Shown here in pieces: positions 9,901-39,359 of a stretch of 64,000 nt of DNA. Source of the DNA: an uncultured Gammaproteobacteria bacterium (GTDB lineage: Bacteria; Patescibacteriota; Patescibacteriia; UBA1558; GWA2-36-10); NCBI GenBank assembly GCA_964633905.1, contig CAZWIT010000003.1, positions 67,193-131,192 on the forward strand, written 5' to 3'. The notes beneath the pieces were generated by a model. It was not told the origin of the DNA. It searched no databases and was given only the letters and a program-made list of their open reading frames with translations. A program made the position numbers and the translations under genes. How positions within the stretch are numbered: position 1 is the stretch's first letter; each line of letters starts with the position of its first letter.

Positions 9901-10458
9901 CTAACTGTTTAGAAATTTTTCTTTTAGAAAACCTAAAAAATCATCCATTTCCTTTCTGGATTTTTCCAAAATTTCTGCTTGATTAATCATGTTTTGTTTT
10001 TCTTCTCGGCTCATATTATTATTTAATTGATTAGTTATTCTGAAGGCTCCAAAAATACCAATTGGTTCAATAACTATTCTATAAATTGAGTTTATCTCTC
10101 TATTTTTATAAAATTCCTCAAGTAAGGCTAGGATTTTTTCCTGATATTTTTCGTTGATATTTCGCCACTCTGCTTGTTTTTTTTCATCTTCTTCCCAACC
10201 CTCTGGCGCAGGAGCACATATGCCTACTCTAGGAAATAAAAATAATCTACCCTCTTCTTCGTTGGTCAAATGACCATAACAAGAGTCATCTGTTGGGAAA
10301 TCATAGGCCATAATGGTAGCAACACCATCTTTAATTCCTTCGTCAATTCCTAAACCTAAACCATCCCCTATTCCATCAACTTGCAATCGGAAGTCTTCCA
10401 GTTTTTTTTGTTTTTTATTTTTACCATCAATTTTAGGAATATTATTTTCAAAATCCAT
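9901..10458 (-). CDS. Hypothetical protein
   Basis: 185-aa ORF, no recognisable motif. Confidence 0.45.
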   Translation of the reverse strand: MDFENNIPKIDGKNKKQKKLEDFRLQVDGIGDGLGLGIDEGIKDGVATIMAYDFPTDDSCYGHLTNEEEGRLFLFPRVGICAPAPEGWEEDEKKQAEWRNINEKYQEKILALLEEFYKNREINSIYRIVIEPIGIFGAFRITNQLNNNMSREEKQNMINQAEILEKSRKEMDDFLGFLKEKFLNS

Positions 10459-10469
10459 ATGTTTATATT

Positions 10470-12002
10470 TTAAAATTTAAAAATTGTTTGGGCTCGATCT
10501 GGGCCGACTGAAATAATTTCTATTTTACCGCCGGTATACTGTTCTATAAAATTTACAATCGTTTTAATTGCCTCGGGCAAAGCCTCGTAGTCTTCAATAT
10601 TAGAAATGGCGGTTTGCCAACCAGGAAATTCTCGGTAAACTGGTTCACACTGATAAAGAATTTCTGAGAATCTAGGGAAAAAATCTATTTGCTGACCAGT
10701 TTTTAATTCCTTGCCAGCATAAAAAATATCAGGGCCTAAATATTTATAAGCTATGGCTAATTTAATTTTGGCAAACTTATCTAAAACATCTACCTTAGTA
10801 AGTACCAAACTATGGCCATTGTATTGCATAGCATATTTTAAGGCCACTAAATCCAACCAACCATTACGTCGCGTCCGACCAGTAGTAGCACCATATTCAT
10901 CGCCAATTAAGCGGACTGCAATGCCTAATTTAAATTGATCATCGCCTTTAATATATTCCTCAATCTTATTTAAATGCTCTGCTTTTTCTTGATTCTTGCT
11001 AATACCCTGTGAGCAATAATCTTCACTTAACTTAGCCCCAAATTCTGTAGGAAAAGGGCCGTTGCCAACTCTGGTCATATAAAAAGCTTTAGCAATACCA
11101 AAAACATGATCCACTTGATTTTCTCTTAAAGCTGCGCCTCTGGCTAAACCGTCTATTGTACAATCTGATGAAGTTTGAAATTTAGTGGTACCAAAATCAA
11201 TGGAAAGCAAACTTCCTTGTGCGCCTTCTAGTAAAATCTTTTTCTTGGCACTTAAAGACTCTTGGACGAAATTTTCTAGATCAATAATATAATTTTTAAG
11301 TTTAAAAGCGAATTCACCTGTGTATTTTTCAACAATGGCTTCAATATCCAAAATAGTTTCCTGATTAAAATATACTCCCCCGCCTAAATGTGGATGAGCT
11401 AAAATTTCCTTGGCAACTGTTTTGTCTAAACCAGCAAGAATACTTTGTTTAGTGGCTAGATATTTAGTTAATTTATCCCGAAATAAATCTTTATTAAAGA
11501 TATCATTTAAAAATAAAGAATGCCGAGCTGTATAGTCAGTATAAAGAGGCCCAATACCGCGACCAGTTGTGCCAATTTGCTGAGCCTTATCGCCAATCCG
11601 ATCTATCAAAATATGATAAGGCAAGACTAAAGGCGCCTGATGACTAATTTTTAAATTATTAATCTCAATGCCAGCGCTTTGCAAAATATTTAGTTCATCA
11701 ATTACTGCCTGTGGATCAAAGGCGACTCCTCTGCCGATAATATTAAGCTTGCCTTTGGCATCGTGTAAAATACCAGAAGGCAAAAGATGAAAAATATGCT
11801 TTTGTCCATTTACCACTATCGTGTGTCCGGCGTTAGCACCACCAGTGCCACGGATAATAATGTCAGCCCAAGTAGCCAGCAAATCCACAAACTTACCTTT
11901 GCCCGTATCACCCCACTGGTTACAAACAACTGCTACACAATTTTTATTCTCCAAAAATTTATTTAGTAAATCTTGACGCATAATATTTTTATCAATAATC
12001 AA
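10470..12002 (-). CDS. purA: Adenylosuccinate synthetase (long form with insertions)
   Basis: QWGDTGKGK P-loop, GHTIV, TTGRGIGP and the GWLD region. The track start is TTG at 12002; the ATG 21 nt downstream (MRQDLL...) is an alternative start. Confidence 0.85.
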   Translation of the reverse strand: MIIDKNIMRQDLLNKFLENKNCVAVVCNQWGDTGKGKFVDLLATWADIIIRGTGGANAGHTIVVNGQKHIFHLLPSGILHDAKGKLNIIGRGVAFDPQAVIDELNILQSAGIEINNLKISHQAPLVLPYHILIDRIGDKAQQIGTTGRGIGPLYTDYTARHSLFLNDIFNKDLFRDKLTKYLATKQSILAGLDKTVAKEILAHPHLGGGVYFNQETILDIEAIVEKYTGEFAFKLKNYIIDLENFVQESLSAKKKILLEGAQGSLLSIDFGTTKFQTSSDCTIDGLARGAALRENQVDHVFGIAKAFYMTRVGNGPFPTEFGAKLSEDYCSQGISKNQEKAEHLNKIEEYIKGDDQFKLGIAVRLIGDEYGATTGRTRRNGWLDLVALKYAMQYNGHSLVLTKVDVLDKFAKIKLAIAYKYLGPDIFYAGKELKTGQQIDFFPRFSEILYQCEPVYREFPGWQTAISNIEDYEALPEAIKTIVNFIEQYTGGKIEIISVGPDRAQTIFKF

Positions 12003-29769: not shown

Positions 29770-30546
29770 CTATTGACAGGGACAAACGGCAATTGCTCCG
29801 GAGACTTGAGCACAATTAATTGTGCTAGTAGTATAGCTACAAGTATCATCATCTGCCCAGGCTGGTGGATATTCATCAGCGCCTACGCTACATTCCCCAC
29901 AACTATAAGGATCATTAAATACATCATTCAAAATACATAAAGAATCCTGCTTATAACTAACGCCATTAGGGCAAACTTTATTATTAGCAGCACAAACCGT
30001 ATCGCAACTTTCCGACCAAGCTTCAGTGCCATACCAACAATAACCACCAGCATAAGTTGCACAAGCATCTACTAATCTAGCCTGGTATTCTACTGCTGCC
30101 ACACTATAGCTACAAGAACCAAAAACAATATTATTATTAGCATCGGCTAAAATATAATAACCAGTATCTACCTCGCTACTTTTATCAGGATCAATTGGTA
30201 ATCTGCCTAAATATTTATCAAAAAAATCTTGGTCACTAATCGCTAAACAATACTCAGTACTAGCACCACAAGTAAGTTGAGTGCCTGATTGAGTAGAGCA
30301 CAAAACTTTTTTGCTGCTATTTACCTGCCCTAAAATAGGCAAAGCGCCTTTATGATCGCGCGCATAACTCGTAAAAGCATTAGCAATATTCAAAATATCA
30401 TTTTGACGCCTTTTGTCTTCGGCTTTGCCAACTTGAGCAACTGGATCAACCCAATAAAATACCGCCGTTCCTAAAATCATTAACACGCCTAATACTATTA
30501 ATAACTCAAGTAAAGAAAAACCTTTTTGATCTTTTATTATTTTCAT
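29770..30546 (-). CDS. Type IV pilin-like protein (prepilin-type N-terminal cleavage/methylation domain) with Cys-rich C-terminal domain
   Basis: N-terminus KGFSLLELLIVLGVLMILGTAVF is a class III signal (G^FSLLE with Glu+5). Confidence 0.75.
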   Translation of the reverse strand: MKIIKDQKGFSLLELLIVLGVLMILGTAVFYWVDPVAQVGKAEDKRRQNDILNIANAFTSYARDHKGALPILGQVNSSKKVLCSTQSGTQLTCGASTEYCLAISDQDFFDKYLGRLPIDPDKSSEVDTGYYILADANNNIVFGSCSYSVAAVEYQARLVDACATYAGGYCWYGTEAWSESCDTVCAANNKVCPNGVSYKQDSLCILNDVFNDPYSCGECSVGADEYPPAWADDDTCSYTTSTINCAQVSGAIAVCPCQ

Positions 30547-30550
30547 ATTA

Positions 30551-31411
30551 TTAGCTAAATTCTTCTAATAATTTATCAATATTTCTAACTAGCATTGGCC
30601 GCTTCACTAAAGCTTTACCACTTAGCTGCGGTAATTTACTCGCATAGTGCTCTTTGGGTGCTTGATAAAAAATACCATAAGGAATTTTATCACCCCAAAG
30701 CAAACTGCTCTCTAGGGCTAACTTACGATCTTGTTTATTATAATCTTTTTGTTCATCTAAATTATACAAACGATCATAAAACCACTTAAAGGTATTGATT
30801 TTATTAAAAGTAACACAAGGTTGAAAGACATCGACTAAAGCAAAACCCGGATAAGAAATAGCACTTTTAAATAATTCTTTTAGATGCTGAGCTTGGCCAG
30901 AAAAACCACGTGCCACAAAGCCAATGTTTTGAGCCAGAGATAAAGCAATAGGATTAACAGCTTCATCAATCACCCCTTGAGGAGTTGATTTTGTTTTAAA
31001 ACCTTGATCAGAAGTAGGTGCCGTTTGACCAGTAGTCAAACCATAAACCTTATTATCATGAGTAATATAAGTAGTATTAACATTACCCCTAACAGCATGC
31101 AGAAAATGCCCCAAGCCCTCGCCATAACCATCGCCATCACCACCCATAGCAATAACCGTCAAATCTTGATTAGCTAGTTTTGCTCCCACAGCTGTAGGTA
31201 GCGTGCGTCCATGCAGAGAATGCCAAACATAAGTTTTGGTAAAATTATTATTATTACCAGAGCAACCAATACCATAAACTATTAATACCTGTTCGGGATT
31301 TAAATTAAGCTCAGCTAAAGCTTGCCGCAAAGCAATCCAAATACCAAAATTTCCACAACCTGGACACCAAGTGGGCTGATGCGGTGTTAAAAAATCTTTA
31401 TCCGTCAACAT
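30551..31411 (-). CDS. korB: 2-oxoacid:ferredoxin oxidoreductase, beta (TPP-binding) subunit
   Basis: TWCPGCGNFG, IGCSGNNNN and GGDGDGYGEG TPP/Mg-binding motifs. Confidence 0.85.
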   Translation of the reverse strand: MLTDKDFLTPHQPTWCPGCGNFGIWIALRQALAELNLNPEQVLIVYGIGCSGNNNNFTKTYVWHSLHGRTLPTAVGAKLANQDLTVIAMGGDGDGYGEGLGHFLHAVRGNVNTTYITHDNKVYGLTTGQTAPTSDQGFKTKSTPQGVIDEAVNPIALSLAQNIGFVARGFSGQAQHLKELFKSAISYPGFALVDVFQPCVTFNKINTFKWFYDRLYNLDEQKDYNKQDRKLALESSLLWGDKIPYGIFYQAPKEHYASKLPQLSGKALVKRPMLVRNIDKLLEEFS

Positions 31412-31413
31412 AT

Positions 31414-33150
31414 TTATATTTTATTTAAAGCCGCCACTAATTCTTCTCTAAAAAATGGTCGACCATCATATTTTAATAATTTATTTTTAATCAACACGCC
31501 AGTTTCCTGAGCAATTAATTGTCCTAATTGCGCATTGCTATTATTTTCTACTAATAAAATTTGTTTAGATGATTTTAAAATATTGTTTACAAAATCCTTT
31601 GGAAAAGGCCAGATATATTGTAATTGCATCAGCCTAATTTTACTTTGTTGTTTACTAGCTAACTGATTATAAGCATCCAATATTGGTCCTTTAGTTGAAC
31701 CCCAAAAGACCACTGTCTTTTTGGCCCTAGGGTTACCATAGATAATTGGCATTGGCATTTTAGCAGCAAAGGTATTTAATTTTTGCTGACGTTTATCTAC
31801 TTGCGCTTTACGATTAGCACTTGATTCATCAGTATAACCATAGGCATCATGCTCATCGCTATTAGCATTAAACAAACCACCCGGCATGCCTGGTATGGTG
31901 CGCGGTGAAATACCGTCAGCTGTTAAACGATAACGTTGATAATTCTTTATTTTTTTAAGTTGGGCTAAATCTAATAATTTGCCTCGATTGATTTTTATTT
32001 TTTTAACATTAAATCTAGGCACTGTGCTATCACCCTCTGAAATAAATTTATCTAACAAAATAATAACTGGCAACTGATAAATATCAGCTAAATTCAAAGC
32101 CTCAGCCGCCAAATAAAAAGCTTCGCTAGCGTCAGCTGGTGCTAAAATAATTCTGGGAAAATCACCTTGAGCAGCTCGCAATACAAATTGTAAATCTCCC
32201 TGCTCTGTCCAAGTAGGCAGTCCCGTGGCTGGACCTGGTCTTTGTGCATTAACTACTACTAAAGGCGTTTCTGTAATACCGGCCAAGCCCAAAGCTTCTA
32301 CCATTAAAGAAAAACCACCGCCAGAAGTTGCTATCATTGCTCGAGCACCCACAACGGAAGCACCTAAGGCCATATTAATAACAGAAATTTCATCTTCAGC
32401 GTGCTTTACAACAAGGCCAGTCTCTTCGGCAACTTGAGCTAAATAATGTAAAATAGAAGATGAAGGGGTCATGGGATAGCCAGCGTAAAAATTAAGACCC
32501 CCAGCCAAAGCTCCTAAAGCAGTGGCCTCATTAGCACTAATTAAAATATTAGTATTAACTTTGTAGCTGACTAACTGACAATAAAATTGTTGCTGATAAA
32601 CAGTCTGCAATTCCTTAAAACCTAAGGCCAAGGCTTTTAAATTACTACTTACCAACTCTTTGCCTTTACCTTTAAAATTTTCTTTAACTACCTGATTAGC
32701 AATCGTTAAGTCTTGTCCAACTAAAGCAAGCGTTGCCCCTAAAGCAACAACATTGCGCATAATATCTCCACCCGCCAATTTAGCAATCGTGGTTAATGGC
32801 AAGGGAATAAAATTAATTTTAGGGTTATATTTTTTTATTTTTAGATTTATTTTATCTTCATCATAAATTACTACTCCACCCGCAACTAATTCTTCATGAT
32901 GTAAATTAATAGTCTCTTGATTTAAGGCTACCAGTACATCAATTTGGGCATTAACGCTATTGGTTTCTTTGATATCAATAGTTAATTGAAATGTATTATG
33001 CCCACCTCGAATCAAAGAAGGATATTCGGTGTAATCAAATACTTCATAACCTGCTTTCATAAAAATTTTAGCCAAGATCATACCAGCTGATTTAATACCA
33101 AAACCAGCTTCACCACCAATTTTCCAGTTAAGATTATTTTTACTAATCAT
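31414..33150 (-). CDS. korA: 2-oxoacid:ferredoxin oxidoreductase, alpha subunit (fused gamma/alpha-type)
   Basis: 578 aa. GYPMTPSS and other POR/KOR alpha motifs. Its stop is 3 bp before the beta-subunit start. Confidence 0.85.
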   Translation of the reverse strand: MISKNNLNWKIGGEAGFGIKSAGMILAKIFMKAGYEVFDYTEYPSLIRGGHNTFQLTIDIKETNSVNAQIDVLVALNQETINLHHEELVAGGVVIYDEDKINLKIKKYNPKINFIPLPLTTIAKLAGGDIMRNVVALGATLALVGQDLTIANQVVKENFKGKGKELVSSNLKALALGFKELQTVYQQQFYCQLVSYKVNTNILISANEATALGALAGGLNFYAGYPMTPSSSILHYLAQVAEETGLVVKHAEDEISVINMALGASVVGARAMIATSGGGFSLMVEALGLAGITETPLVVVNAQRPGPATGLPTWTEQGDLQFVLRAAQGDFPRIILAPADASEAFYLAAEALNLADIYQLPVIILLDKFISEGDSTVPRFNVKKIKINRGKLLDLAQLKKIKNYQRYRLTADGISPRTIPGMPGGLFNANSDEHDAYGYTDESSANRKAQVDKRQQKLNTFAAKMPMPIIYGNPRAKKTVVFWGSTKGPILDAYNQLASKQQSKIRLMQLQYIWPFPKDFVNNILKSSKQILLVENNSNAQLGQLIAQETGVLIKNKLLKYDGRPFFREELVAALNKI

Positions 33151-33264
33151 AAATATAGTTTCTAATTTCTAAACATTCACCCCGTGGAATACCACCAAAA
33201 TTTAACAAATAAATTTTAATTGCTATTTAAATATTTTTATAATAACAATTCAAAATTATAAAAC

Positions 33265-33308
33265 TAAAGCTGGTGGTAGTTTCCGCTTACAGCGGAAACT
33301 ATTCCACT
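33265..33308. other. Long imperfect hairpin (~17 bp stem: CTGGTGGTAGTTTCCGC-ttaca-GCGGAAACTAttCCACtGGG) in the korA upstream region
   Basis: Direct reading; 8 bp perfect core GTTTCCGC/GCGGAAAC. Confidence 0.4.
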
Positions 33309-33342
33309 GGGTAAATTATAACAGAAAGCTCAATTATTTTCT

Positions 33343-33379
33343 AATTAAAACAAAACCCAGCCCTTTACAGAGGGGCTGG
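33343..33379 (-). terminator. Intrinsic terminator CCAGCCCC-tctgtaaa-GGGCTGGG + TTTTGTTTTAATT (minus strand)
   Basis: 8-bp GC stem followed by a T-rich tract on the minus strand, downstream of the small ORFs at 33543-33856. Confidence 0.55.
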
Positions 33380-33542
33380 ATCGGTAGGCCTTAGAGCAAA
33401 CCTTAAAAAAATATTAGTCAGGGGGGCATTTTATTAAATTTTAATAATTAAGCATAGCTGGCATAAGCTGCCCAACTAAACAAAAGTAAAATGTGCATTG
33501 AATAGCTACTTAGATAAAATTTATTTATCATATGTTTTATAA

Positions 33543-33683
33543 TTATATCCAGGTTGATGCCCAGACAAAATAACTTAACACTATCAGGGATAAAATAGCC
33601 CAATTTTCATGACTAGCAACTTCGGGCGAGCAATAAAAATCGCTTTTACGCCAAGAAGTTACCTTGCATTGTGGTGTTTCCAT
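33543..33683 (-). CDS. Small tail-anchored membrane peptide (46 aa), candidate; not in the ORF track
   Basis: METPQCKVTSWRKSDFYCSPEVASHENWAILSLIVLSYFVWASTWI. Immediately follows the 33713..33856 ORF in the same promoter-terminator unit. Confidence 0.3.
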   Translation of the reverse strand: METPQCKVTSWRKSDFYCSPEVASHENWAILSLIVLSYFVWASTWI

Positions 33684-33712
33684 AATTTTATTTTTATTTA
33701 ATTATAATTAAC

Positions 33713-33856
33713 TTAAACTGTTTGACTCATCATTACTATTAAAGTAATAGACCCTACTAAACATAGTAAGATAATTGCCCAATAATCACCGGATCGCAAT
33801 TTGGCATCACCGGGGCGTACTACTAATCTAAAAGATTTAATTTGACCATCATTCAT
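33713..33856 (-). CDS. Small tail-anchored membrane peptide (47 aa), candidate; not in the ORF track
   Basis: MNDGQIKSFRLVVRPGDAKLRSGDYWAIILLCLVGSITLIVMMSQTV. Lies downstream of the consensus promoter and of a leader hairpin ending in a U-run. Confidence 0.35.
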   Translation of the reverse strand: MNDGQIKSFRLVVRPGDAKLRSGDYWAIILLCLVGSITLIVMMSQTV

Positions 33857-33927
33857 ATATTTTATAGATAAATAAAAAATTGGCCGCAAGAGACAGTTCT
33901 CTTAAGCCAATTTTAAACTACATATAC

Positions 33928-33956
33928 ATGATAGCATAAAAAAATGCTTTTGTCAA
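33928..33956 (-). promoter_or_regulatory. Consensus sigma70 promoter TTGACA-17-TATCAT (minus strand), followed by leader hairpin AATTGGC-ttAAGAGAactgTCTCTTgc-GGCCAATTTTTT (33870-33912)
   Basis: -35 at 33951-33956, -10 at 33928-33933. The nested stem-loop plus U-run sits immediately before the ATG of the 33713..33856 ORF. Confidence 0.5.
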
Positions 33957-33984
33957 TCAAAACAAATATTTTTTATTAAAAAAT

Positions 33985-34022
33985 CCCGCCTAACGCCTGT
34001 AATAACGTTTCAGCGGGAAAAA
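33985..34022 (-). terminator. Intrinsic terminator TCCCGC-(22 nt loop)-GCGGGA + TTTTTTAAT
   Basis: Directly after the stop (34023) of the 57-aa membrane protein gene. Confidence 0.5.
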
Positions 34023-34196
34023 TCATTTTGAAGAAAAAACTTCTTCTCGAAAATCACCCTCGCTGGTATATACTTCTAATTCACTGGCAGTATCCTCTGA
34101 TTCACTTGCAAACATTTTAAATACATAGACTAATAAACATATCAGACCAAAACCTAGACCCAACAAACAAAGAATGATAATAAGGACGATTTTCAT
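34023..34196 (-). CDS. Small membrane-anchored acidic protein (57 aa from the internal ATG with SD GGAGGGG)
   Basis: The track ORF 34023..34226 starts at TTG. A stronger start is the ATG at 34196 (GAAGGAGGGGAAAAG-ATG), giving MKIVLIIILCLLGLGFGLICLLVYVFKMFASESEDTASELEVYTSEGDFREEVFSSK. Own promoter TTGCAA-17-TAGTAT and terminator. Confidence 0.5.
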   Translation of the reverse strand: MKIVLIIILCLLGLGFGLICLLVYVFKMFASESEDTASELEVYTSEGDFREEVFSSK

Positions 34197-34282
34197 CTTT
34201 TCCCCTCCTTCAAGGATAAAGGACAAGCTAGGTCACTCCTATTACTTTAATATACTAAACAAATTATGCTGATTTTGCAATA

Positions 34283-34318
34283 TATAAAAATAAAACCCAC
34301 CGCGTCAGACACGGTGAG
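34283..34318 (-). terminator. Weak intrinsic terminator CACCG-tgtctgacg-CGGTG + GGTTTTATTTTTAT
   Basis: After the stop of the 73-aa zinc-ribbon ORF. Confidence 0.4.
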
Positions 34319-34342
34319 CTAAAAATAACTCACAAGTTTATA

Positions 34343-34564
34343 TTAACTTGATAATACGAATACGAATTTCTCTTTGAGATCATAAGTATCTATGGCTCTT
34401 ACCCCACAAAGCGGACAACCATACACTCTATCAGTATAAGGATTTAGTTGAGCATTAACATTGCAGGTCTTACATTTGTAAGAATTTATTTCTCTCCACT
34501 TACCGCCAGAGCCAACCGCTAAATCAAGAATATCTTCATGCCTTTTACAACTAGGAATAGGCAC
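34343..34564 (-). CDS. Small zinc-ribbon protein (C6, CKTC, CPLC), hypothetical
   Basis: Track ORF. SD AGGAGG about 8 nt upstream (34571-34576). Own promoter TTGACA-17-TATGCT (34609-34637). Start codon assignment is uncertain: my reading of bases 34559-34564 (agcaca) would encode Ala-Cys rather than the Met-Pro shown in the track, which may be a misread on my part. Confidence 0.5.
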   Translation of the reverse strand: MPIPSCKRHEDILDLAVGSGGKWREINSYKCKTCNVNAQLNPYTDRVYGCPLCGVRAIDTYDLKEKFVFVLSS

Positions 34565-34608
34565 AATCCTACCTCCTGTGAGCTAGTTAACAATGATCGG
34601 GACAAAAA

Positions 34609-34637
34609 TAGCATAAGTGAAAACAACAACATTGTCA
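34609..34637 (-). promoter_or_regulatory. Consensus sigma70 promoter TTGACA-17-TATGCT (minus strand) for the zinc-ribbon gene
   Basis: -35 at 34632-34637, -10 at 34609-34614, 17-nt spacer. Confidence 0.5.
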
Positions 34638-34640
34638 ATT

Positions 34641-34696
34641 TAAGAAAAAGAAAAGGCCTGCTACGATCTTGCTAGATAAGCAAGGAGCAGGCCTTT
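34641..34696 (-). terminator. Strong intrinsic terminator AAAGGCCTGCT-(24 nt)-AGCAGGCCTTT + TCTTTTTCTT
   Basis: 11-bp GC stem followed by a T-tract immediately after the stop of the GC-rich 355-aa gene. Confidence 0.65.
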
Positions 34697-34723
34697 GAAT
34701 ACGAGTCTTGACACTAGCCTGGG

Positions 34724-35791
34724 CTAGCCACGACGCAGACTGCGCCAGTTGATCGGCTGAGGAGCCACTTGCTGACGCAAACTCTGGCAACGCTCCAGGC
34801 CGAAGCAGTGGAAGGGGCACTCTTGCCCCAAGCACTGCTTGGTTTCCCGGCAGTGCTCATGGGGCAGGTGGTCCGAGCGCACGCCCAGAATAGCAGCGGC
34901 CACAATGACCTCAAACGACAGCTGAGTGACCGGCACGTCCGGATGACTCAAGCTACCATTGAGAAACATCTGGCCGGCTTTCTGGTAGTGCCACTCTTCG
35001 GCACCTTCTACCTTGCCTTCTTGGGCAAGGGTCTCGGCATCCAAGGACTCTTCCAAGCCCTTGGTGGAGCGTTCGCCAACGCGGAGAATGCGCGCCACGT
35101 CTTCCAGTCGCCAGTTCTGCCTGTTGCAGAAAATCTGGACATGCCCAGAAGAACGCTGCACAATCACCACGTCAGCCGCCAGACCGCCGTCCTCGACAGA
35201 GGCACGCGCCATGTTCACAGACATGGTATTGTCGGTCTTGAGCACTGCCAGACGGCAGGCCTTCTGACCGACGACCAGGTCGTGAATTTCGGAATCAGCC
35301 AGCTCGACGCGCGCCGCCTGCCCTCGCTCTTGCTCGGCGTACTTGGCATCAAGTGCCATAATAGCCCAGATAAGAGCATGTTCAGGATCTTTGACGTAGT
35401 GGAACATCAGCTTGGTCAGGGAGAACAAGTCAAAAGGCTGACTGCCTCCGCGTGTGTCGATCCGATGTGTGAATGCCAAAATCTTGGCCAGCGCCGGATC
35501 AGAATCAATCCCTAAGTCCTTGGCTACCAAAGTAGCCGCACACTCAGGACTGGCCTGACCGTTGCGATGTTCGTCAAAACGACCACCGCCAACGCCGATC
35601 AGCAGACAGCCGTCTGCTTCCCACTCTTCTGCCGAGCGATTGTCCGGCGACTTACCACCAGACCAATACTCGACAACAGCCTGATCCACGCCAGGGTATT
35701 TCTTGCTACCCCAGCGCCAGAGCATCCAGATAGCCACGATCTCGTCGAGATGTGGCTTCAGATGCGTCACGATCCTGCGAATATTAGGCAT
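34724..35791 (-). CDS. GC-rich foreign-looking gene: putative metal-dependent hydrolase, MYG1/UPF0160-like N-terminal motifs
   Basis: About 58% GC with CTG/GCG/CGT-rich codons in a one-third-GC genome. Strong SD AAGGAG 6 nt before the ATG. Motifs VTHLKPHLDEIVAIWML and LIGVGGGRFDEH resemble MYG1 THxGxFHxDEALA and DVGGxYD..DHHQ. Many overlapping alternative-frame ORFs are GC artefacts. Confidence 0.6.
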   Translation of the reverse strand: MPNIRRIVTHLKPHLDEIVAIWMLWRWGSKKYPGVDQAVVEYWSGGKSPDNRSAEEWEADGCLLIGVGGGRFDEHRNGQASPECAATLVAKDLGIDSDPALAKILAFTHRIDTRGGSQPFDLFSLTKLMFHYVKDPEHALIWAIMALDAKYAEQERGQAARVELADSEIHDLVVGQKACRLAVLKTDNTMSVNMARASVEDGGLAADVVIVQRSSGHVQIFCNRQNWRLEDVARILRVGERSTKGLEESLDAETLAQEGKVEGAEEWHYQKAGQMFLNGSLSHPDVPVTQLSFEVIVAAAILGVRSDHLPHEHCRETKQCLGQECPFHCFGLERCQSLRQQVAPQPINWRSLRRG

Positions 35792-35962
35792 GAGCCTCTC
35801 CTTCTGCTGCTACTTGCAGCTAGTAATCAAGACTAGGTTGACAATGAACAATCATAGTATTATATCATATATATTAGATTTTGTCAATATTATAAAATTG
35901 ACTGTTTAGCCTATTTTCATTATTATTAATATACTTAAAAAGCTTTAATAAATACTTTATAT

Positions 35963-36178
35963 ATGAGAATAGAAGTAGATAGAGAATTATGCATTAGCGT
36001 AGCCTCTTGCGTAGCGGTTGCCCCTAATACCTTTGAGCTTGACGATGAGGGCATTGCTGTTATCAAAAACCCCACAGGTGATGACGAAAAAACTATTTTA
36101 CAGGCTGCCCAAAGCTGCCCAGTAAATGCTATACGAATTTTTGATGATGCTGGTAAACAAATTCATCCACCTCAATAA
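35963..36178 (+). CDS. Ferredoxin (single-cluster, Cys-x5-Cys...CP type)
   Basis: MRIEVDRELCISVASCVAVAP...AAQSCPVNAI matches small monocluster ferredoxins. A likely partner of korAB. Confidence 0.7.
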   Translation: MRIEVDRELCISVASCVAVAPNTFELDDEGIAVIKNPTGDDEKTILQAAQSCPVNAIRIFDDAGKQIHPPQ

Positions 36179-36186
36179 TAAAAATT

Positions 36187-36642
36187 ATGACCACTCAAGA
36201 TAAAAATAAATTGGTGCTCGGCCAGCAGGCACCGCTTTTTGTCTTAAAAACTCAAAGTGGCCAAAAAATAAATTTAGCTGACTTCAAAGGCAAGAAAAAT
36301 GTCTTGCTCGTTTTCTATCCTGGCGATAACACCCCTGGTTGTACTCGCCAACTCTGCGCTTTGCGTGATGATTATCATCAATTCCAAAATAAAGATACTG
36401 CTATTTTTGGTATTAATCACGCCGATGCTCAATCTCATCAAAAATTTATTGACCATTACCAGTTTCCTTTTGATCTATTGATAGATAATGATAAAAAAGT
36501 TTCCCTGGAATATGGTGCTATCAAATTATTTTTCAATAAAACTATTATCAAGCGAACGGTAGTCTTAATAGACAAAGAAGGAAAAATTATTTATCTAAAA
36601 CGCGGTCTACCAGCTAACGAAGAAATATTAAAAAAATTGTAA
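36187..36642 (+). CDS. Thiol peroxidase / peroxiredoxin, Bcp-type (thioredoxin fold)
   Basis: FYPGDNTPGCTRQLCAL active-site region. AhpC/TSA family. Confidence 0.75.
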   Translation: MTTQDKNKLVLGQQAPLFVLKTQSGQKINLADFKGKKNVLLVFYPGDNTPGCTRQLCALRDDYHQFQNKDTAIFGINHADAQSHQKFIDHYQFPFDLLIDNDKKVSLEYGAIKLFFNKTIIKRTVVLIDKEGKIIYLKRGLPANEEILKKL

Positions 36643-36653
36643 GATCTTTATTT

Positions 36654-37919
36654 ATGAAAAAAAATATCAAAGAAAATATATATTTAGACCATGCTGCCAC
36701 CACTCCTACTGATCCCGAAGTAGTAGCTGCGATGGCACCATATTGGACAGAAAAATTTGGCAATCCTTCTAGCCTTTATGCCCTAGGTTTAGAAGCTAAA
36801 AATGCTATAGACGCTGCTCGCCTTAACATTGCTAAGTTTTTAAACTGCAAAGAAAATGAAATTATTTTTACTGGCGGTGGCACTGAAAGCATTAATTTAG
36901 CCATCAAGGGTTTATGCTATAACTATTTAAATGCTGAAAAAAAACCACATTTAATCATTTCTAGTATTGAGCATCACGCTGTTTTTGCGGCTGCCGAAAG
37001 ATTGGTTAAACAAGGCTTTTCTGTATCAGTAATACCAGTCGATGCTGATGGTCTAATCATAATGTCAGAATTAGAAAAAGCTGTTCAAGATAACACTCTG
37101 CTAATCAGCATCATGCTGGCCAACAATGAAGTTGGCACCATACAACCTATTCAAAAAATTGGTAACTGGCTAAGTAAATTAAATCAAGATAGAAGCAAAA
37201 ATAATTTAAATAAAATTTATCTACACACTGATGCTTGCCAAGCAGCTGGTAGCTTGGACCTGGATGTAAATAAATTACACGTTGATTTGCTTACTTTAAA
37301 TGGCAGCAAAATATACGGACCAAAAGGCATTGGTGTTTTGTATATTAAATCTGGGACTAATTTAGTTCCCTTAATAGATGGTGGTGGCCAAGAAAGAAAT
37401 TTACGCTCTGGAACTGAAAATATTCCCGCTATCATTGGTCTAGCTAAAGCTTTGAATCTAGCTCAAAATACAAAAGAAGCCGAAAATAAAAGATTGATCG
37501 ATTTACGCGACTGGCTAATCAAGGAATTATTAACTAAAATTCCTAAAACTATTTTAAATGGCCATGCAGAAGAACGCTTAGCTAACAATGTAAATATTTC
37601 CTTTTTAGATGTTGAAGGCGAAGCCCTGTTATTATACTTAGACGAAGTCGGCATCCAAGCTTCTACTGGCTCAGCTTGCACTTCTACTACCCTAGAACCT
37701 TCCCATGTTATTCGCGCTTTAGGTAGACCTTATGAAGCTGCGCATGGTTCTTTACGCTTTACTTTAGGAAAACAGACCACTAAAAAAGACCTAGAATATT
37801 TAATAGAAAAATTATCTATCATAGTTGATAAACTACGCAAAGCTTCACCGGTAATAGTAGATATGGATGAACTTGAACGCGCTATCCAAGAAGCACCAAA
37901 AAAAATTATTAACTTATAA
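36654..37919 (+). CDS. Cysteine desulfurase (NifS/IscS class V aminotransferase)
   Basis: HTDACQAAG, LNGSKIYGPKGIG (PLP-Lys region) and SGSACTS catalytic Cys loop. Confidence 0.85.
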   Translation: MKKNIKENIYLDHAATTPTDPEVVAAMAPYWTEKFGNPSSLYALGLEAKNAIDAARLNIAKFLNCKENEIIFTGGGTESINLAIKGLCYNYLNAEKKPHLIISSIEHHAVFAAAERLVKQGFSVSVIPVDADGLIIMSELEKAVQDNTLLISIMLANNEVGTIQPIQKIGNWLSKLNQDRSKNNLNKIYLHTDACQAAGSLDLDVNKLHVDLLTLNGSKIYGPKGIGVLYIKSGTNLVPLIDGGGQERNLRSGTENIPAIIGLAKALNLAQNTKEAENKRLIDLRDWLIKELLTKIPKTILNGHAEERLANNVNISFLDVEGEALLLYLDEVGIQASTGSACTSTTLEPSHVIRALGRPYEAAHGSLRFTLGKQTTKKDLEYLIEKLSIIVDKLRKASPVIVDMDELERAIQEAPKKIINL

Positions 37920-37944
37920 ATTACAAAATAACTAAATTACATAT

Positions 37945-38625
37945 ATGTCTCAACAAAATAAAACAACTACGCTTACCAGCGCTAGCGAAATGGACATTGT
38001 ACCAAAAGCCGGCCAAGAATCTTGGCTTTATTCTGATATTGTTAAAGAACATTTCTTTAACCCTAAAAATCTGATTTCTGATGCCAGTCAAATGCAAAAT
38101 TACGACGGCCTAGGCATGGTAGGATCTCCTGCCTGCGGTGATATGATGAAAATCTGGATTTGGGTTGATAAAGACAAAGACACTATTAAAGATATGAAAT
38201 GGCAAACTTTTGGTTGTGCTTCAGCTATCGGCGCTACCTCGATGTTGTCTGTCATGGTTACTGAAAATGGCGGTATGAAAATTGATCAAGCTTTAAAAAT
38301 TCAAGCTCAAGATATTACCGCTCGTTTAGGTGGATTGCCTACTCGCAAAATTCACTGTTCTGTTTTAGGTGACAAGGCTTTACGTTCGGCTATAAATAAT
38401 TATTTTTTCAAAAGCAATCAAAAAGATCGCATTGTCGAAGAAAAAGCCCGCATCATCGACAAGGTAGCACAAGTAACTGACCACGATATCGAAGAAGCTG
38501 TCTTAGAAGGAGCTATCACTTTAGAAGCTGTACAGAAAAAAACTAAAGTTGGCGTTGGTCAACCAGAAGTTATTCCTGAAGTAGAACAATTAATCAGATT
38601 TTACCAAGAAAAATATTTTGGCTAA
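37945..38625 (+). CDS. NifU/IscU-type Fe-S cluster scaffold with C-terminal extension
   Basis: GSPACGDMMKIW, GCASAIG and HCSVLG (three conserved Cys + His of IscU). Confidence 0.8.
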   Translation: MSQQNKTTTLTSASEMDIVPKAGQESWLYSDIVKEHFFNPKNLISDASQMQNYDGLGMVGSPACGDMMKIWIWVDKDKDTIKDMKWQTFGCASAIGATSMLSVMVTENGGMKIDQALKIQAQDITARLGGLPTRKIHCSVLGDKALRSAINNYFFKSNQKDRIVEEKARIIDKVAQVTDHDIEEAVLEGAITLEAVQKKTKVGVGQPEVIPEVEQLIRFYQEKYFG

Positions 38626-38738
38626 AAATGTCATGCCGAACTTGTTTCAGCATCTCCGGACTTATTATAAATATTTAGAGACCCTGAATCCGCCGGCTGG
38701 CGGATCAGGGTGACAATTATTAACTAACACAAAAAAAT

Positions 38739-39359
38739 ATGAACAAACAATTTATTACGCCCGACTTAAGCTATACTTATGACGCGCTAGAACCATATAT
38801 TGATAAAGAAACCATGATGGTTCACCACGACAAACATCATGTTACTTATACTACTAATCTAAATAAGGCTTTGGAAAAATATCCAGAATGGTTTGACAAA
38901 AGCATTGAAGAAATTTTAAGCAACTTAAATGCCGTACCAGAAGACATAAGATTAGCTGTCAAAAATCATGGCGGCGGACATTTACATCACAATATTTTTT
39001 GGGCGACCATGAGGCCAGCTCAAGAAAATAATTTACCGGGTGCTAAGTTACTGGCTGCTATTGAAAAAGATTTTGGCAGTTTCGATAAATTTAAAGAAGA
39101 TTTAAATGCTGCGGCTAGCACTGTTTTTGGCGCAGGCTGGGCTTGGCTATCATTTGCCGACAATAAGTTAATCATCGAAAAAACTGCCAACCAAGATAGT
39201 CCTTGTAGCCTTGGACATACTCCTCTATTGGGCATTGATGTTTGGGAGCATGCTTATTATCTCAAATATCAAAATCGTCGCGTGGAATATATCCAAAATT
39301 TTTGGCCAATTATTAATTGGGCAGCAGTAGAGGCTAGATTTTTAGAAGTACAAAAATAA
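38739..39359 (+). CDS. sodA: Fe/Mn superoxide dismutase
   Basis: HHDKHH, NHGGGHLNH-like region, [15 protein letters not shown]. Confidence 0.85.

What the first reader, a model, noticed from the sequence alone, without database searches (positions are those of the whole stretch)
34724..35791. GC-rich 355-aa gene with MYG1/UPF0160-like metal-binding motifs
The protein shows VTHLKPHLDEIVAIWML...LIGVGGGRFDEH. This parallels the MYG1 signatures T-H-x-G-x-F-H-x-D-E-A-L-A and D-V-G-G-x-Y-D...D-H-H-Q, and a later LSHPDVP echoes the MYG1 WNHPD. MYG1 proteins are metal-dependent 3'-5' RNA exonucleases found sporadically in bacteria. Here the gene is compositionally foreign and carries a Cys/His-rich C-terminal tail (HLPHEHCRETKQCLGQECPFHC). 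A foreign nuclease as a stand-alone unit next to a small zinc-ribbon protein is intriguing, but the assignment is weak.
Basis: inference. Interest (0 to 1): 0.6.

Follow-up and report, generated by a model that had tools for sequence, protein, structure and literature searches.

The report
Orphan DHH-like phosphoesterase on GC-rich island
This is a real, self-contained gene for a very divergent member of the DHH class of metal-dependent phosphate-ester-cleaving enzymes (the class that includes MYG1), acquired long ago from a GC-rich donor; it belongs to a large, unnamed family found mainly in Patescibacteria, and its substrate is unknown.

Summary
The 355-aa ORF (34724-35791, minus strand) is real and has its own consensus promoter, Shine-Dalgarno and terminator. 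It is the only GC-rich gene in the window: 58% GC and GC3 0.66, against 34% and 0.26 elsewhere (z about 10). It is not a UPF0160/MYG1 member. There is no Pfam hit, and profile-profile comparison with MYG1 is weak (P 7e-3 to 2e-4) and limited to the N-domain. It belongs to an unnamed family of at least 2,030 sequence clusters, mostly Patescibacteria and WOR-3. An AlphaFold model (pLDDT 93) matches only DHH-superfamily phosphoesterases in PDB: family II pyrophosphatase, NrnA, RecJ and pAp phosphatase (probability up to 0.97). They sit in register with DHH motifs I and III. The closest sequence family is ChrB_C, the chromate-sensor domain (HH probability 86%), which has replaced these ligands with arginines. 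Four invariant tail cysteines suggest a Zn or Fe-S site. The most likely function is a two-metal phosphoesterase acting on a nucleotide-type substrate; this is untested. No gene partner is conserved, and the zinc-ribbon neighbour is incidental.

The parts
35859..35887 (-). Sigma-70-type promoter TTGACA-17-TATAAT with TG extension, 12/12 match, AT-rich (host-like) sequence
   Evidence: sequence read
35795..35801 (-). Shine-Dalgarno GGAGAGG, 3 nt upstream of the ATG
   Evidence: read directly
34724..35791 (-). 355-aa ORF: divergent DHH-superfamily protein (stop codon included)
35297..35791 (-). N-terminal DHH-like / ChrB_C-like catalytic domain (residues 1-165)
   Evidence: Foldseek; ChrB_C Pfam hits on residues ~6-142 of relatives; hhalign
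35741..35767 (-). Motif I: T9-H10-L-K-P13-H14-L-D16-E17. Same spacing as canonical DHH motif I (H-x-x-P-D-x-D), with the first Asp replaced by His
   Evidence: conservation; register against B. subtilis PPase II 1k23 sequence; against MYG1
35567..35596 (-). G66-V-G-G-G-R-F-D73-E74-H75: equivalent of DHH motif III (D-E-H instead of D-H-H). The motif II Asp position is occupied by invariant G66
34862..35296 (-). C-terminal alpha/beta domain (residues 166-310), remotely DHHA1/DHHA2-like. Conserved S186-D187, R196, R237, E240, E258-G259, E265, W267, N278-G279-S280
   Evidence: model pLDDT 94; Foldseek ranking, (E 0.04-0.5, marginal); conservation
34772..34861 (-). Cys4 tail (residues 311-340): invariant C314, C320, C325, C335 (CX5CX4CX9C); putative Zn or Fe-S site
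   Evidence: metal binding is inferred
34640..34696 (-). Intrinsic terminator: 45-nt GC-rich hairpin (34652-34696), then UUUUCUUUUUCUU
   Evidence: dG -28.6 kcal/mol, z -3.55, 0 of 200 shuffles as stable; sequence
34650..35830 (.). GC-rich island (55-62% GC in a 34% GC genome), coextensive with the 5'UTR end, ORF and terminator

Best explanation
The gene encodes a catalytically intact but highly divergent two-domain DHH-superfamily phosphoesterase, transcribed on its own. The N-domain (residues 1-165) presents a His/Asp/Glu cluster (H10, H14, D16, E17, D73, E74, H75, D112). By analogy with family II pyrophosphatase, NrnA, RecJ and MYG1, this cluster would hold one or two divalent metal ions that activate water to attack a phosphoester or phosphoanhydride bond. 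The C-domain (166-310), with conserved R196, R237 and N278-G-S, would close over the site and bind the substrate's phosphate or nucleotide. A Cys4 tail adds a structural or redox-sensitive Zn/Fe-S site. The substrate is most likely a small nucleotide-type compound: nanoRNA, pAp, a cyclic or linear dinucleotide, or possibly PPi/polyP. The gene entered the ancestor of this low-GC Patescibacteria-like lineage from a GC-rich donor and has only partly ameliorated. Shown here: the gene and its transcription signals, the family, the fold, motif conservation and register, and the age of the island. Inferred: metal binding, catalysis, substrate class, and the role of the Cys4 site.
For: The ORF, promoter, SD and terminator are present. 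The family has 203 hits at 90% clustering and 2,030 representatives at 50% clustering, 1,076 of them at E<=1e-30. The AF2 model has pLDDT 93.2. Its top 19 Foldseek PDB hits are all DHH-superfamily enzymes, E 5.6e-5 to 5e-3, probability up to 0.97, followed by a drop to E>0.1. The C-domain model (pLDDT 94.2) again ranks DHHA2/DHHA1 domains first. The candidate ligands are invariant or at least 98% conserved. Motif I is in register with the deposited PPase II sequence (H9-x-x-P-D13-x-D15) and with MYG1. The MYG1 DHH triad that aligns with D73-E74-H75 is required for MYG1 function: the DHH-to-ALL mutant is described as catalytically inactive (PMC6582341). In ChrB, the residues at the positions of H10 and E17 (R180, R187) are essential for ligand sensing, while nearby arginines are not, so the same pocket is functional there (PMC3817168). 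Synteny and equal synonymous divergence with neighbours show an old acquisition. WOR-3 homologues are natively GC-rich and lie next to the window clade in an NJ tree.
Against: No sequence profile for DHH (PF01368), DHHA1/2 or UPF0160 matches any member, and the link to DHH rests on predicted structure. Full-length TM-scores are low (0.16-0.27), which I attribute to the inter-domain hinge without having shown it. The C-domain matches are individually non-significant (E>=0.04). The motif II Asp is missing (G66), the DHH triad reads D-E-H, and the DHHA1 GGGH motif is absent. The nearest sequence relative, ChrB_C, is a sensor domain and not an enzyme. I could not inspect model coordinates to confirm that the ligands cluster. 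No genomic context points to a substrate.
Confidence: 0.6

Rival explanations
1. It is a bacterial MYG1/UPF0160 orthologue, a Mg-dependent 3'-5' RNA exonuclease.
For: hhalign pairs motif I and the GG...RFD-E-H segment with the MYG1 THxGxFHxDE and DVGG...RYDHH motifs, better than domain-swapped controls (P 0.0067, 0.0016 and 0.0002, versus 0.09 and 0.73). MYG1 shares the His-for-Asp replacement in motif I. Both are about 350-aa DHH-superfamily proteins.
Against: There is no PF03690 hit at E<=10 for the protein, and PF03690 is not among the 25 Pfam families that most of the 121 relatives match at E<=1. HH probability is only 6-47%. The C-terminal halves do not align at all. H-to-H spacing in motif I differs (x3 versus x4), the GG-to-D loop is 6 residues shorter, and the triad is DEH rather than DHH. 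MYG1 lacks the Cys4 tail. ChrB_C is a much closer relative, and ChrB_C shows no similarity to MYG1.
Confidence: 0.1
2. It is a non-catalytic ligand-binding protein related to the ChrB C-terminal sensor domain, binding an oxyanion or a metal rather than hydrolysing anything.
For: ChrB_C (PF09828) is the only Pfam family detected: 69 of 121 members, 2 above the gathering score, covering residues ~6-142. hhalign gives probability 86%, P 4.7e-6, over 123 columns. The ChrB sensing residues map onto this family's motif I.
Against: The family keeps a complete His/Asp/Glu ligand set under near-absolute conservation. ChrB_C has replaced it (H10->R, E17->R, E74->M, H75->F) and lacks the LLIGVGGG strand. 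There is no ChrB_N DNA-binding domain and no chrA neighbour in the window or in about 50 analysed loci. There is an extra DHHA-like domain, as in the enzymes.
Confidence: 0.15
3. It is specifically an inorganic pyrophosphatase or exopolyphosphatase (family II PPase/PPX1-like), not a nucleotide or oligonucleotide esterase.
For: The best single PDB hit is a family II PPase (2enx, E 5.6e-5), and PPases also top the C-domain search. Motif I spacing is identical to PPase II.
Against: NrnA/Rv2837c hits have equal or higher probability (0.97) and better TM-scores. The DHHA2 substrate motif of PPases was not detected by sequence. Direct hhalign against the PPase II N-domain is not significant (P 0.084, 17 columns).
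Confidence: 0.12
4. The GC-rich segment is an assembly chimera, contaminant or decaying pseudogene.
For: The composition jump is extreme.
Against: The same gene in the same synteny occurs on four contigs from separate samples or studies (L001, L002, L003 and the contig carrying P0001). The ORF is intact with invariant residues conserved. It has a consensus promoter, SD and terminator. Synonymous divergence equals that of its neighbours.
Confidence: 0.01

Closest known systems
ChrB C-terminal domain (Pfam PF09828, ChrB_C), the chromate-sensing domain of the ChrB regulator
   Same: Closest by sequence: HH probability 86% over 123 columns, and Pfam hits on residues ~6-142 of relatives. The shared framework is T9, D16, W22, R71-F72-D73, C84, the DPAL helix and D112. 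The pocket formed by motif I is functional in both: ChrB R180 and R187, essential for chromate sensing, align with H10 and E17.
   Different: ChrB_C is a ~130-aa sensor module fused to a DNA-binding ChrB_N domain and linked to chrA. It has lost H10, E17, E74 and H75 (now R, R, M, F) and the GVGGG strand. This family is a stand-alone 350-aa protein with an intact ligand set, a second DHHA-like domain and a Cys4 tail, and no chrA linkage.
MYG1 / UPF0160 (Pfam PF03690), a DHH-family 3'-5' RNA exonuclease
   Different: No Pfam hit, and HH probability 6-47% for the N-domain only. The C-halves are unrelated by sequence. DEH versus DHH; motif II Asp present in MYG1 (DVGG) but Gly here; a 6-residue shorter loop; no Cys4 tail in MYG1.
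NrnA / Rv2837c (CnpB)-type DHH-DHHA1 nanoRNases and pAp phosphatases
   Same: Highest Foldseek probabilities (0.97; 4ls9, 5jju, 5cet) over 365-375 columns. Two-domain architecture of about 320-350 aa. The C-domain also matches 5jju.
   Different: 12-13% identity, no PF01368/PF02272 hit, no GGGH motif, motif II Asp absent, and an extra Cys4 tail.
Family II inorganic pyrophosphatase (DHH-DHHA2)
   Same: Best E-value in PDB (2enx, 5.6e-5). Identical motif I spacing: H-x-x-P-[D/H]-x-D.
   Different: D13->H14, D75->G66, H97->E74. The DHHA2 motif was not detected. Direct profile-sequence alignment is not significant.

Membership tests
UPF0160 / MYG1 (PF03690) | Match to the Pfam PF03690 model at or above the gathering score | tested here: not met
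   No hit at E<=10 for the window protein. PF03690 is not among the 25 Pfam families that most of the 121 relatives match at E<=1. Genuine MYG1 proteins all carry PF03690.
UPF0160 / MYG1 (PF03690) | Significant profile-profile similarity over the whole protein | tested here: not met
   hhalign probability 5.7% to 47%, N-domain only. The C-terminal halves align over 7 columns.
UPF0160 / MYG1 (PF03690) | Catalytic D-H-H triad and T-H-x-G-x-F-H-x-D-E motif | tested here: inconclusive
   The aligned equivalents are D73-E74-H75 and T-H-x-x-P-H-x-D-E, one residue shorter. They are similar but not identical.
UPF0160 / MYG1 (PF03690) | 3'-5' exonuclease activity on RNA | not testable with these tools
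   Needs biochemistry. The MYG1 activity is reported in PMC6582341.
DHH phosphoesterase superfamily | DHH-type fold of the catalytic domain, followed by a DHHA-type second domain | tested here: met
DHH phosphoesterase superfamily | Motifs I (DxD), II (D), III (DHH), IV (D) and the DHHA1 GGGH motif | tested here: inconclusive
   Motif I is present as H-x-D with canonical spacing. The motif II Asp is replaced by invariant G66. Motif III is D-E-H. D112 is a candidate motif IV. GGGH is absent, with N278-G-S a possible analogue.
DHH phosphoesterase superfamily | Match to Pfam DHH (PF01368) or DHHA1/DHHA2 | tested here: not met
   None of these is among the 25 Pfam families that most of the 121 members match at E<=1, and the window protein has no hit at E<=10.
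ChrB_C (PF09828) | Match to the Pfam PF09828 model | tested here: inconclusive
   The window protein has no hit at E<=10. 69 of 121 relatives hit weakly, and 2 exceed the gathering score (27.6 and 28.0 versus 25 bits). Profile-profile probability is 86%.
ChrB_C (PF09828) | Invariant arginines at the sensing positions (ChrB R180, R187) and H229 | tested here: not met
   The positions are H10 and E17 here. The H229 equivalent falls in a variable loop.
ChrB chromate-resistance regulator | N-terminal ChrB_N DNA-binding domain and linkage to the chrA transporter | tested here: not met
   The protein starts directly with the DHH-like domain. No chrA-like neighbour is present in the window, and none appeared as a conserved neighbour across about 50 loci. 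Genuine ChrB genes abut chrA.

The most novel reading that the evidence does not exclude
This gene represents an undescribed, catalytically intact clade of the DHH superfamily (at least 2,000 sequence clusters, concentrated in Patescibacteria and WOR-3). On this reading the clade is the evolutionary bridge between DHH/MYG1-type phosphoesterases and the ChrB chromate-sensor domain, showing that ChrB_C is a DHH catalytic domain whose metal ligands were converted into oxyanion-binding arginines. The clade also carries a unique Cys4 (Zn or Fe-S) module that could make a nucleotide or nanoRNA phosphoesterase redox- or metal-responsive. Its recurrent GC excess in AT-rich hosts would mark it as an unusually mobile housekeeping-type gene among ultra-small bacteria.
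Probability: 0.3. Interest if true: 0.55.

Novelty: new variant of a known kind. Interest (0 to 1): 0.4.

Why it matters
Patescibacteria have minimal genomes full of unannotated families. Assigning a fold and a probable chemistry to one with thousands of members removes a sizeable block of 'hypothetical proteins' and gives a concrete, testable enzyme candidate for nucleotide or nanoRNA turnover in these organisms. The family also provides an intermediate that links ChrB_C to the DHH fold; the one mechanistic ChrB study I read proposed only a rhodanese-like similarity for that domain. This suggests how an enzyme active site was repurposed into a chromate (oxyanion) sensor, and it accounts for the published R180/R187 mutant phenotypes. 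The old, only partly ameliorated GC island, seen repeatedly across AT-rich hosts, is a useful marker of gene flow between WOR-3-like and CPR lineages. None of this overturns current understanding, so the value is incremental.

Tried and rejected
1. Direct scans of the protein against Pfam, NCBIfam, PHROGs and PADLOC found nothing meaningful.
2. Sequence and profile searches of PDB gave only spurious hits: an EGFR kinase segment (E 0.0017, from one chain in which the segment occurs twice) and HIV gp120 'LLNGSL'.
4. Guilt by association failed. Clustering all ORFs within 5 kb in about 50 loci found no neighbour conserved beyond close relatives. The adjacent ferredoxin/AhpC/IscS/NifU/SOD and OFOR genes are lineage-specific synteny, so I did not link the Cys4 tail to Fe-S assembly.
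5. The zinc-ribbon ORF as a partner is rejected. It occurs only in L001 and L003, has native GC and has its own promoter.
6. 'LSHPDVP ~ WNHPD' is rejected. H283 is not conserved, and hhalign places the MYG1 WN..D segment opposite residues ~131-141.
7. Longer family members (440-520 aa) contain only internal duplications of N-domain segments, with no informative fusions.
8. There is no Rfam family in 33000-36300, so a structured RNA does not explain the GC richness. The 248-aa antisense ORF (34769-35515, +) is most likely a by-product of GC richness.
9. Recent HGT is rejected. The gene shares the synonymous divergence of its neighbours.
10. hhalign against a single PPase II sequence was not significant (P 0.084). 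I used it only to check motif register.

Full report
OBSERVATION. Its GC content is 57.7% (GC3 0.66), against 35% in both 5-kb flanks (neighbouring genes have GC3 0.23-0.30). In 200-nt windows the jump from about 30-40% to 55-62% coincides with the ends of the ORF. Among the window's 52 non-overlapping ORFs of at least 150 aa it is the only one with GC3 above 0.4, with z about 10.

TRANSCRIPTION UNIT. A 12/12 sigma-70 consensus (TTGACA-17-TATAAT, with TG extension) lies at 35887-35859, and a GGAGAGG Shine-Dalgarno ends 3 nt before the ATG. About 27 nt past the stop there is a 45-nt GC-rich hairpin (dG -28.6 kcal/mol, z -3.55, none of 200 shuffles as stable) followed by UUUUCUUUUUCUU. The downstream 73-aa zinc-ribbon ORF has its own promoter-like site (34638-34610) and terminator (34320-34294). 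The gene is therefore monocistronic. No Rfam family is present in 33000-36300.

A LARGE UNNAMED FAMILY. The protein itself hits nothing meaningful in Pfam (including UPF0160), NCBIfam, PHROGs, PADLOC or PDB sequences. It nevertheless has 203 relatives in the 90%-clustered database. All are about 350 aa, and those that carry a name are called 'hypothetical', mostly from Patescibacteria, with some WOR-3. An exhaustive profile search finds 2,030 representatives at 50% clustering, 1,076 of them at E<=1e-30. Eighty loci from named genomes span many Patescibacteria lineages (Paceibacteria/Parcubacteria, Zambryski-, Jorgensen-, Brenner-, Uhr-, Woese-, Daviesbacteria and others) plus WOR-3. I found no paper describing the family.

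CONSERVATION. In a 121-sequence alignment the following are invariant or at least 90% conserved:
- N-domain: H10, D73 and H75 are invariant; T9, P13, H14, D16, E17, G68-G-G-R-F, E74, C84, D112 and D121 are near-invariant.
- C-domain: S186-D187, R196, R237, E240, E258-G259, E265, W267 and N278-G279-S280.
- Tail: four cysteines, C314, C320, C325 and C335 (CX5CX4CX9C in the window protein).
H283 of 'LSHPDVP', the tail histidines and C329 are not conserved.

TESTING THE MYG1 IDEA. I used my recollection of human MYG1 only as bait. All 120 listed hits were genuine PF03690 proteins, and I aligned 20 of them.
- Family versus MYG1 by hhalign: probability 5.7%, P 0.0067.
- Local reruns: P 0.0016 for N-domain versus N-domain, and P 0.0002 (probability 47%) for full length versus full length.
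- Mismatched-domain controls: P 0.09 and 0.73. The C-terminal halves do not align.
The resemblance is real but weak, it is confined to the catalytic domain, and it does not amount to membership.

THE NEAREST SEQUENCE FAMILY IS ChrB_C. 69 of 121 members give weak hits to PF09828 over residues ~6-142, and two exceed the gathering score. Against an alignment of 25 genuine ChrB_C proteins, hhalign gives probability 86%, P 4.7e-6, over 123 columns. MYG1 versus ChrB_C gives nothing. ChrB_C keeps T9, D16, W22, R71-F72-D73, C84 and D112, but it has H10->R, E17->R, E74->M and H75->F and lacks the LLIGVGGG strand.

A Klebsiella plasmid ChrB carries the expected residue at 12 of the 14 positions mutated in O. 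tritici ChrB, so the numbering can be transferred. R180 and R187, whose mutation abolishes chromate induction, align with H10 and E17. The dispensable R182, R195 and R196 fall on non-conserved positions (PMC3817168). The same pocket is thus functional in both families. ChrB looks like a DHH-type site whose metal ligands were turned into oxyanion-binding arginines, while this family keeps the enzyme-like set.

MOTIF REGISTER WITH CANONICAL DHH ENZYMES. The deposited B. subtilis PPase II sequence reads G-H9-Q-N-P-D13-T-D15, VILVD75 and VID96-H-H98. The only local hhalign match of the family to it pairs RIVTHLKPHLDEIVAIW with LIFGHQNPDTDTICSAI. That puts H10 with H9, P13 with P12, H14 with D13 and D16 with D15. 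The match is not significant (P 0.084) but it is in register. Relative to the canonical pattern, this family has motif I H-x-x-P-H-x-D, no motif II Asp (invariant G66) and motif III D-E-H.

CONTEXT AND ORIGIN. Close relatives at 88-90% and 67% identity sit in the same synteny. Ferredoxin, (AhpC), IscS, NifU and SOD lie divergently on one side; small ORFs, the OFOR alpha and beta subunits and a pilin lie on the other. This arrangement occurs on four contigs from separate samples or studies. The GC island is present in those with retrievable DNA: 58% vs 34.5%, 58% vs 35%, and 53.5% vs 37%. Third-position identity at conserved four-fold-type codons is the same in this gene as in its neighbours: 0.49 versus 0.43-0.56 against L002, and 0.69 versus 0.56-0.71 against L001. 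The gene has therefore been co-inherited since before these lineages split.

Starting from a WOR-3-like GC3 of about 0.8, the present 0.56-0.66 fits partial amelioration; this is my inference. In a rough NJ tree the window clade groups with other GC-elevated Patescibacteria copies, next to the natively GC-rich WOR-3 clade (no support values). Family-wide, in 13 low-GC3 hosts the gene has GC3 z>2 in 7 and is the highest or second-highest GC3 ORF of its locus in 11, yet gene GC3 tracks host GC3 (r = 0.78). No neighbour is conserved across the family. The zinc-ribbon ORF occurs only in L001 and L003.

INTERPRETATION. The best-supported reading (confidence about 0.6) is a stand-alone, horizontally acquired, divergent DHH-superfamily phosphoesterase that uses a His/Asp/Glu-bound metal centre. 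The DHHA-like domain would bind the substrate and the Cys4 tail would bind Zn or an Fe-S cluster. The substrate is unknown but probably nucleotide-like.

The rivals are:
- A ChrB-like non-catalytic binder (0.15).
- A PPase or polyphosphatase specifically (0.12).
- A true MYG1 orthologue (0.1).
- An artefact (0.01).
I rate it a new variant of a known kind, of moderate interest.

Noticed in passing
window 34343-34564 (-): A 73-aa CxxC...CxxC zinc-ribbon ORF lies immediately downstream. It has native GC (37%), its own promoter-like site (34638-34610) and a strong terminator (34320-34294). It gives only weak zinc-ribbon-type hits (Lar, RpoP, Cas12f C-terminal Zn ribbon; E about 0.005-0.02). It is conserved at 82% identity only in L001 and L003, and is absent from L002 and all other loci.
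   Followed up: partly
loci L004, L018, L021, L024, L030, L043, L050 and others (family gene at about 10001-11050 of each): Across unrelated AT-rich Patescibacteria the family gene is repeatedly the most GC-rich ORF of its locus (GC3 z up to 10). In GC-rich hosts it matches the genome. This could be repeated transfer from GC-rich donors, slow amelioration, or selection on composition. It remains unresolved.
   Followed up: partly
L083 919-1911, L084 931-1908, L085 379-1356 (plasmid ChrB genes): ChrB_C appears to be a degenerate DHH-type domain. The chromate-sensing residues R180 and R187 of ChrB occupy the positions of the metal-ligand candidates H10 and E17 of this family. The 2013 ChrB study proposed only a rhodanese-like similarity for this domain.
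   Followed up: partly
P0241, P0242, P0359, P0366 (family members of 456-523 aa): Some members carry internal tandem duplications of part of the N-domain, either the ECAATLVAK...AKY helical segment or a second, degenerate copy of the whole motif I region. No foreign domain is inserted.
   Followed up: partly
window 35963-39359 (+) and 30551-33150 (-): The island sits between a redox/Fe-S cluster (ferredoxin, AhpC-type peroxiredoxin, IscS, NifU, Fe/Mn SOD), which is transcribed divergently, and a 2-oxoacid:ferredoxin oxidoreductase alpha/beta pair. This linkage holds only in the close clade, so I treated it as coincidental, despite the Cys4 tail.
   Followed up: partly
window 29770-30546 (-): A 258-aa pilin-like protein has an N-terminal FSLLELLIVL motif and a very Cys-rich C-terminal half. 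Its L002 homologue has a weak N_methyl Pfam hit. It is the fastest-evolving gene of the syntenic block (62% identity to the L002 homologue).
   Followed up: no
window 34769-35515 (+): A 248-aa ORF lies antisense to the gene, along with several other long spurious ORFs. They are most likely a by-product of stop-codon depletion in the GC-rich segment, not evidence of a second gene.
   Followed up: no
L003, L005, L012, L014 and other 'TPA_asm' records: Several contigs that clearly resemble Patescibacteria (L003 has the same synteny as the window at 88% identity) are titled 'uncultured Gammaproteobacteria bacterium' or 'Candidatus Saccharibacteria'. These record titles look unreliable as taxonomy.
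   Followed up: no
window 33151-34342: A roughly 1.2-kb AT-rich stretch between OFOR and the zinc-ribbon gene holds only small ORFs, including a 67-aa predicted membrane peptide (34023-34226) that is weakly conserved in L001 and L003 (45% identity), and a near-consensus promoter at 33956-33928.
   Followed up: no
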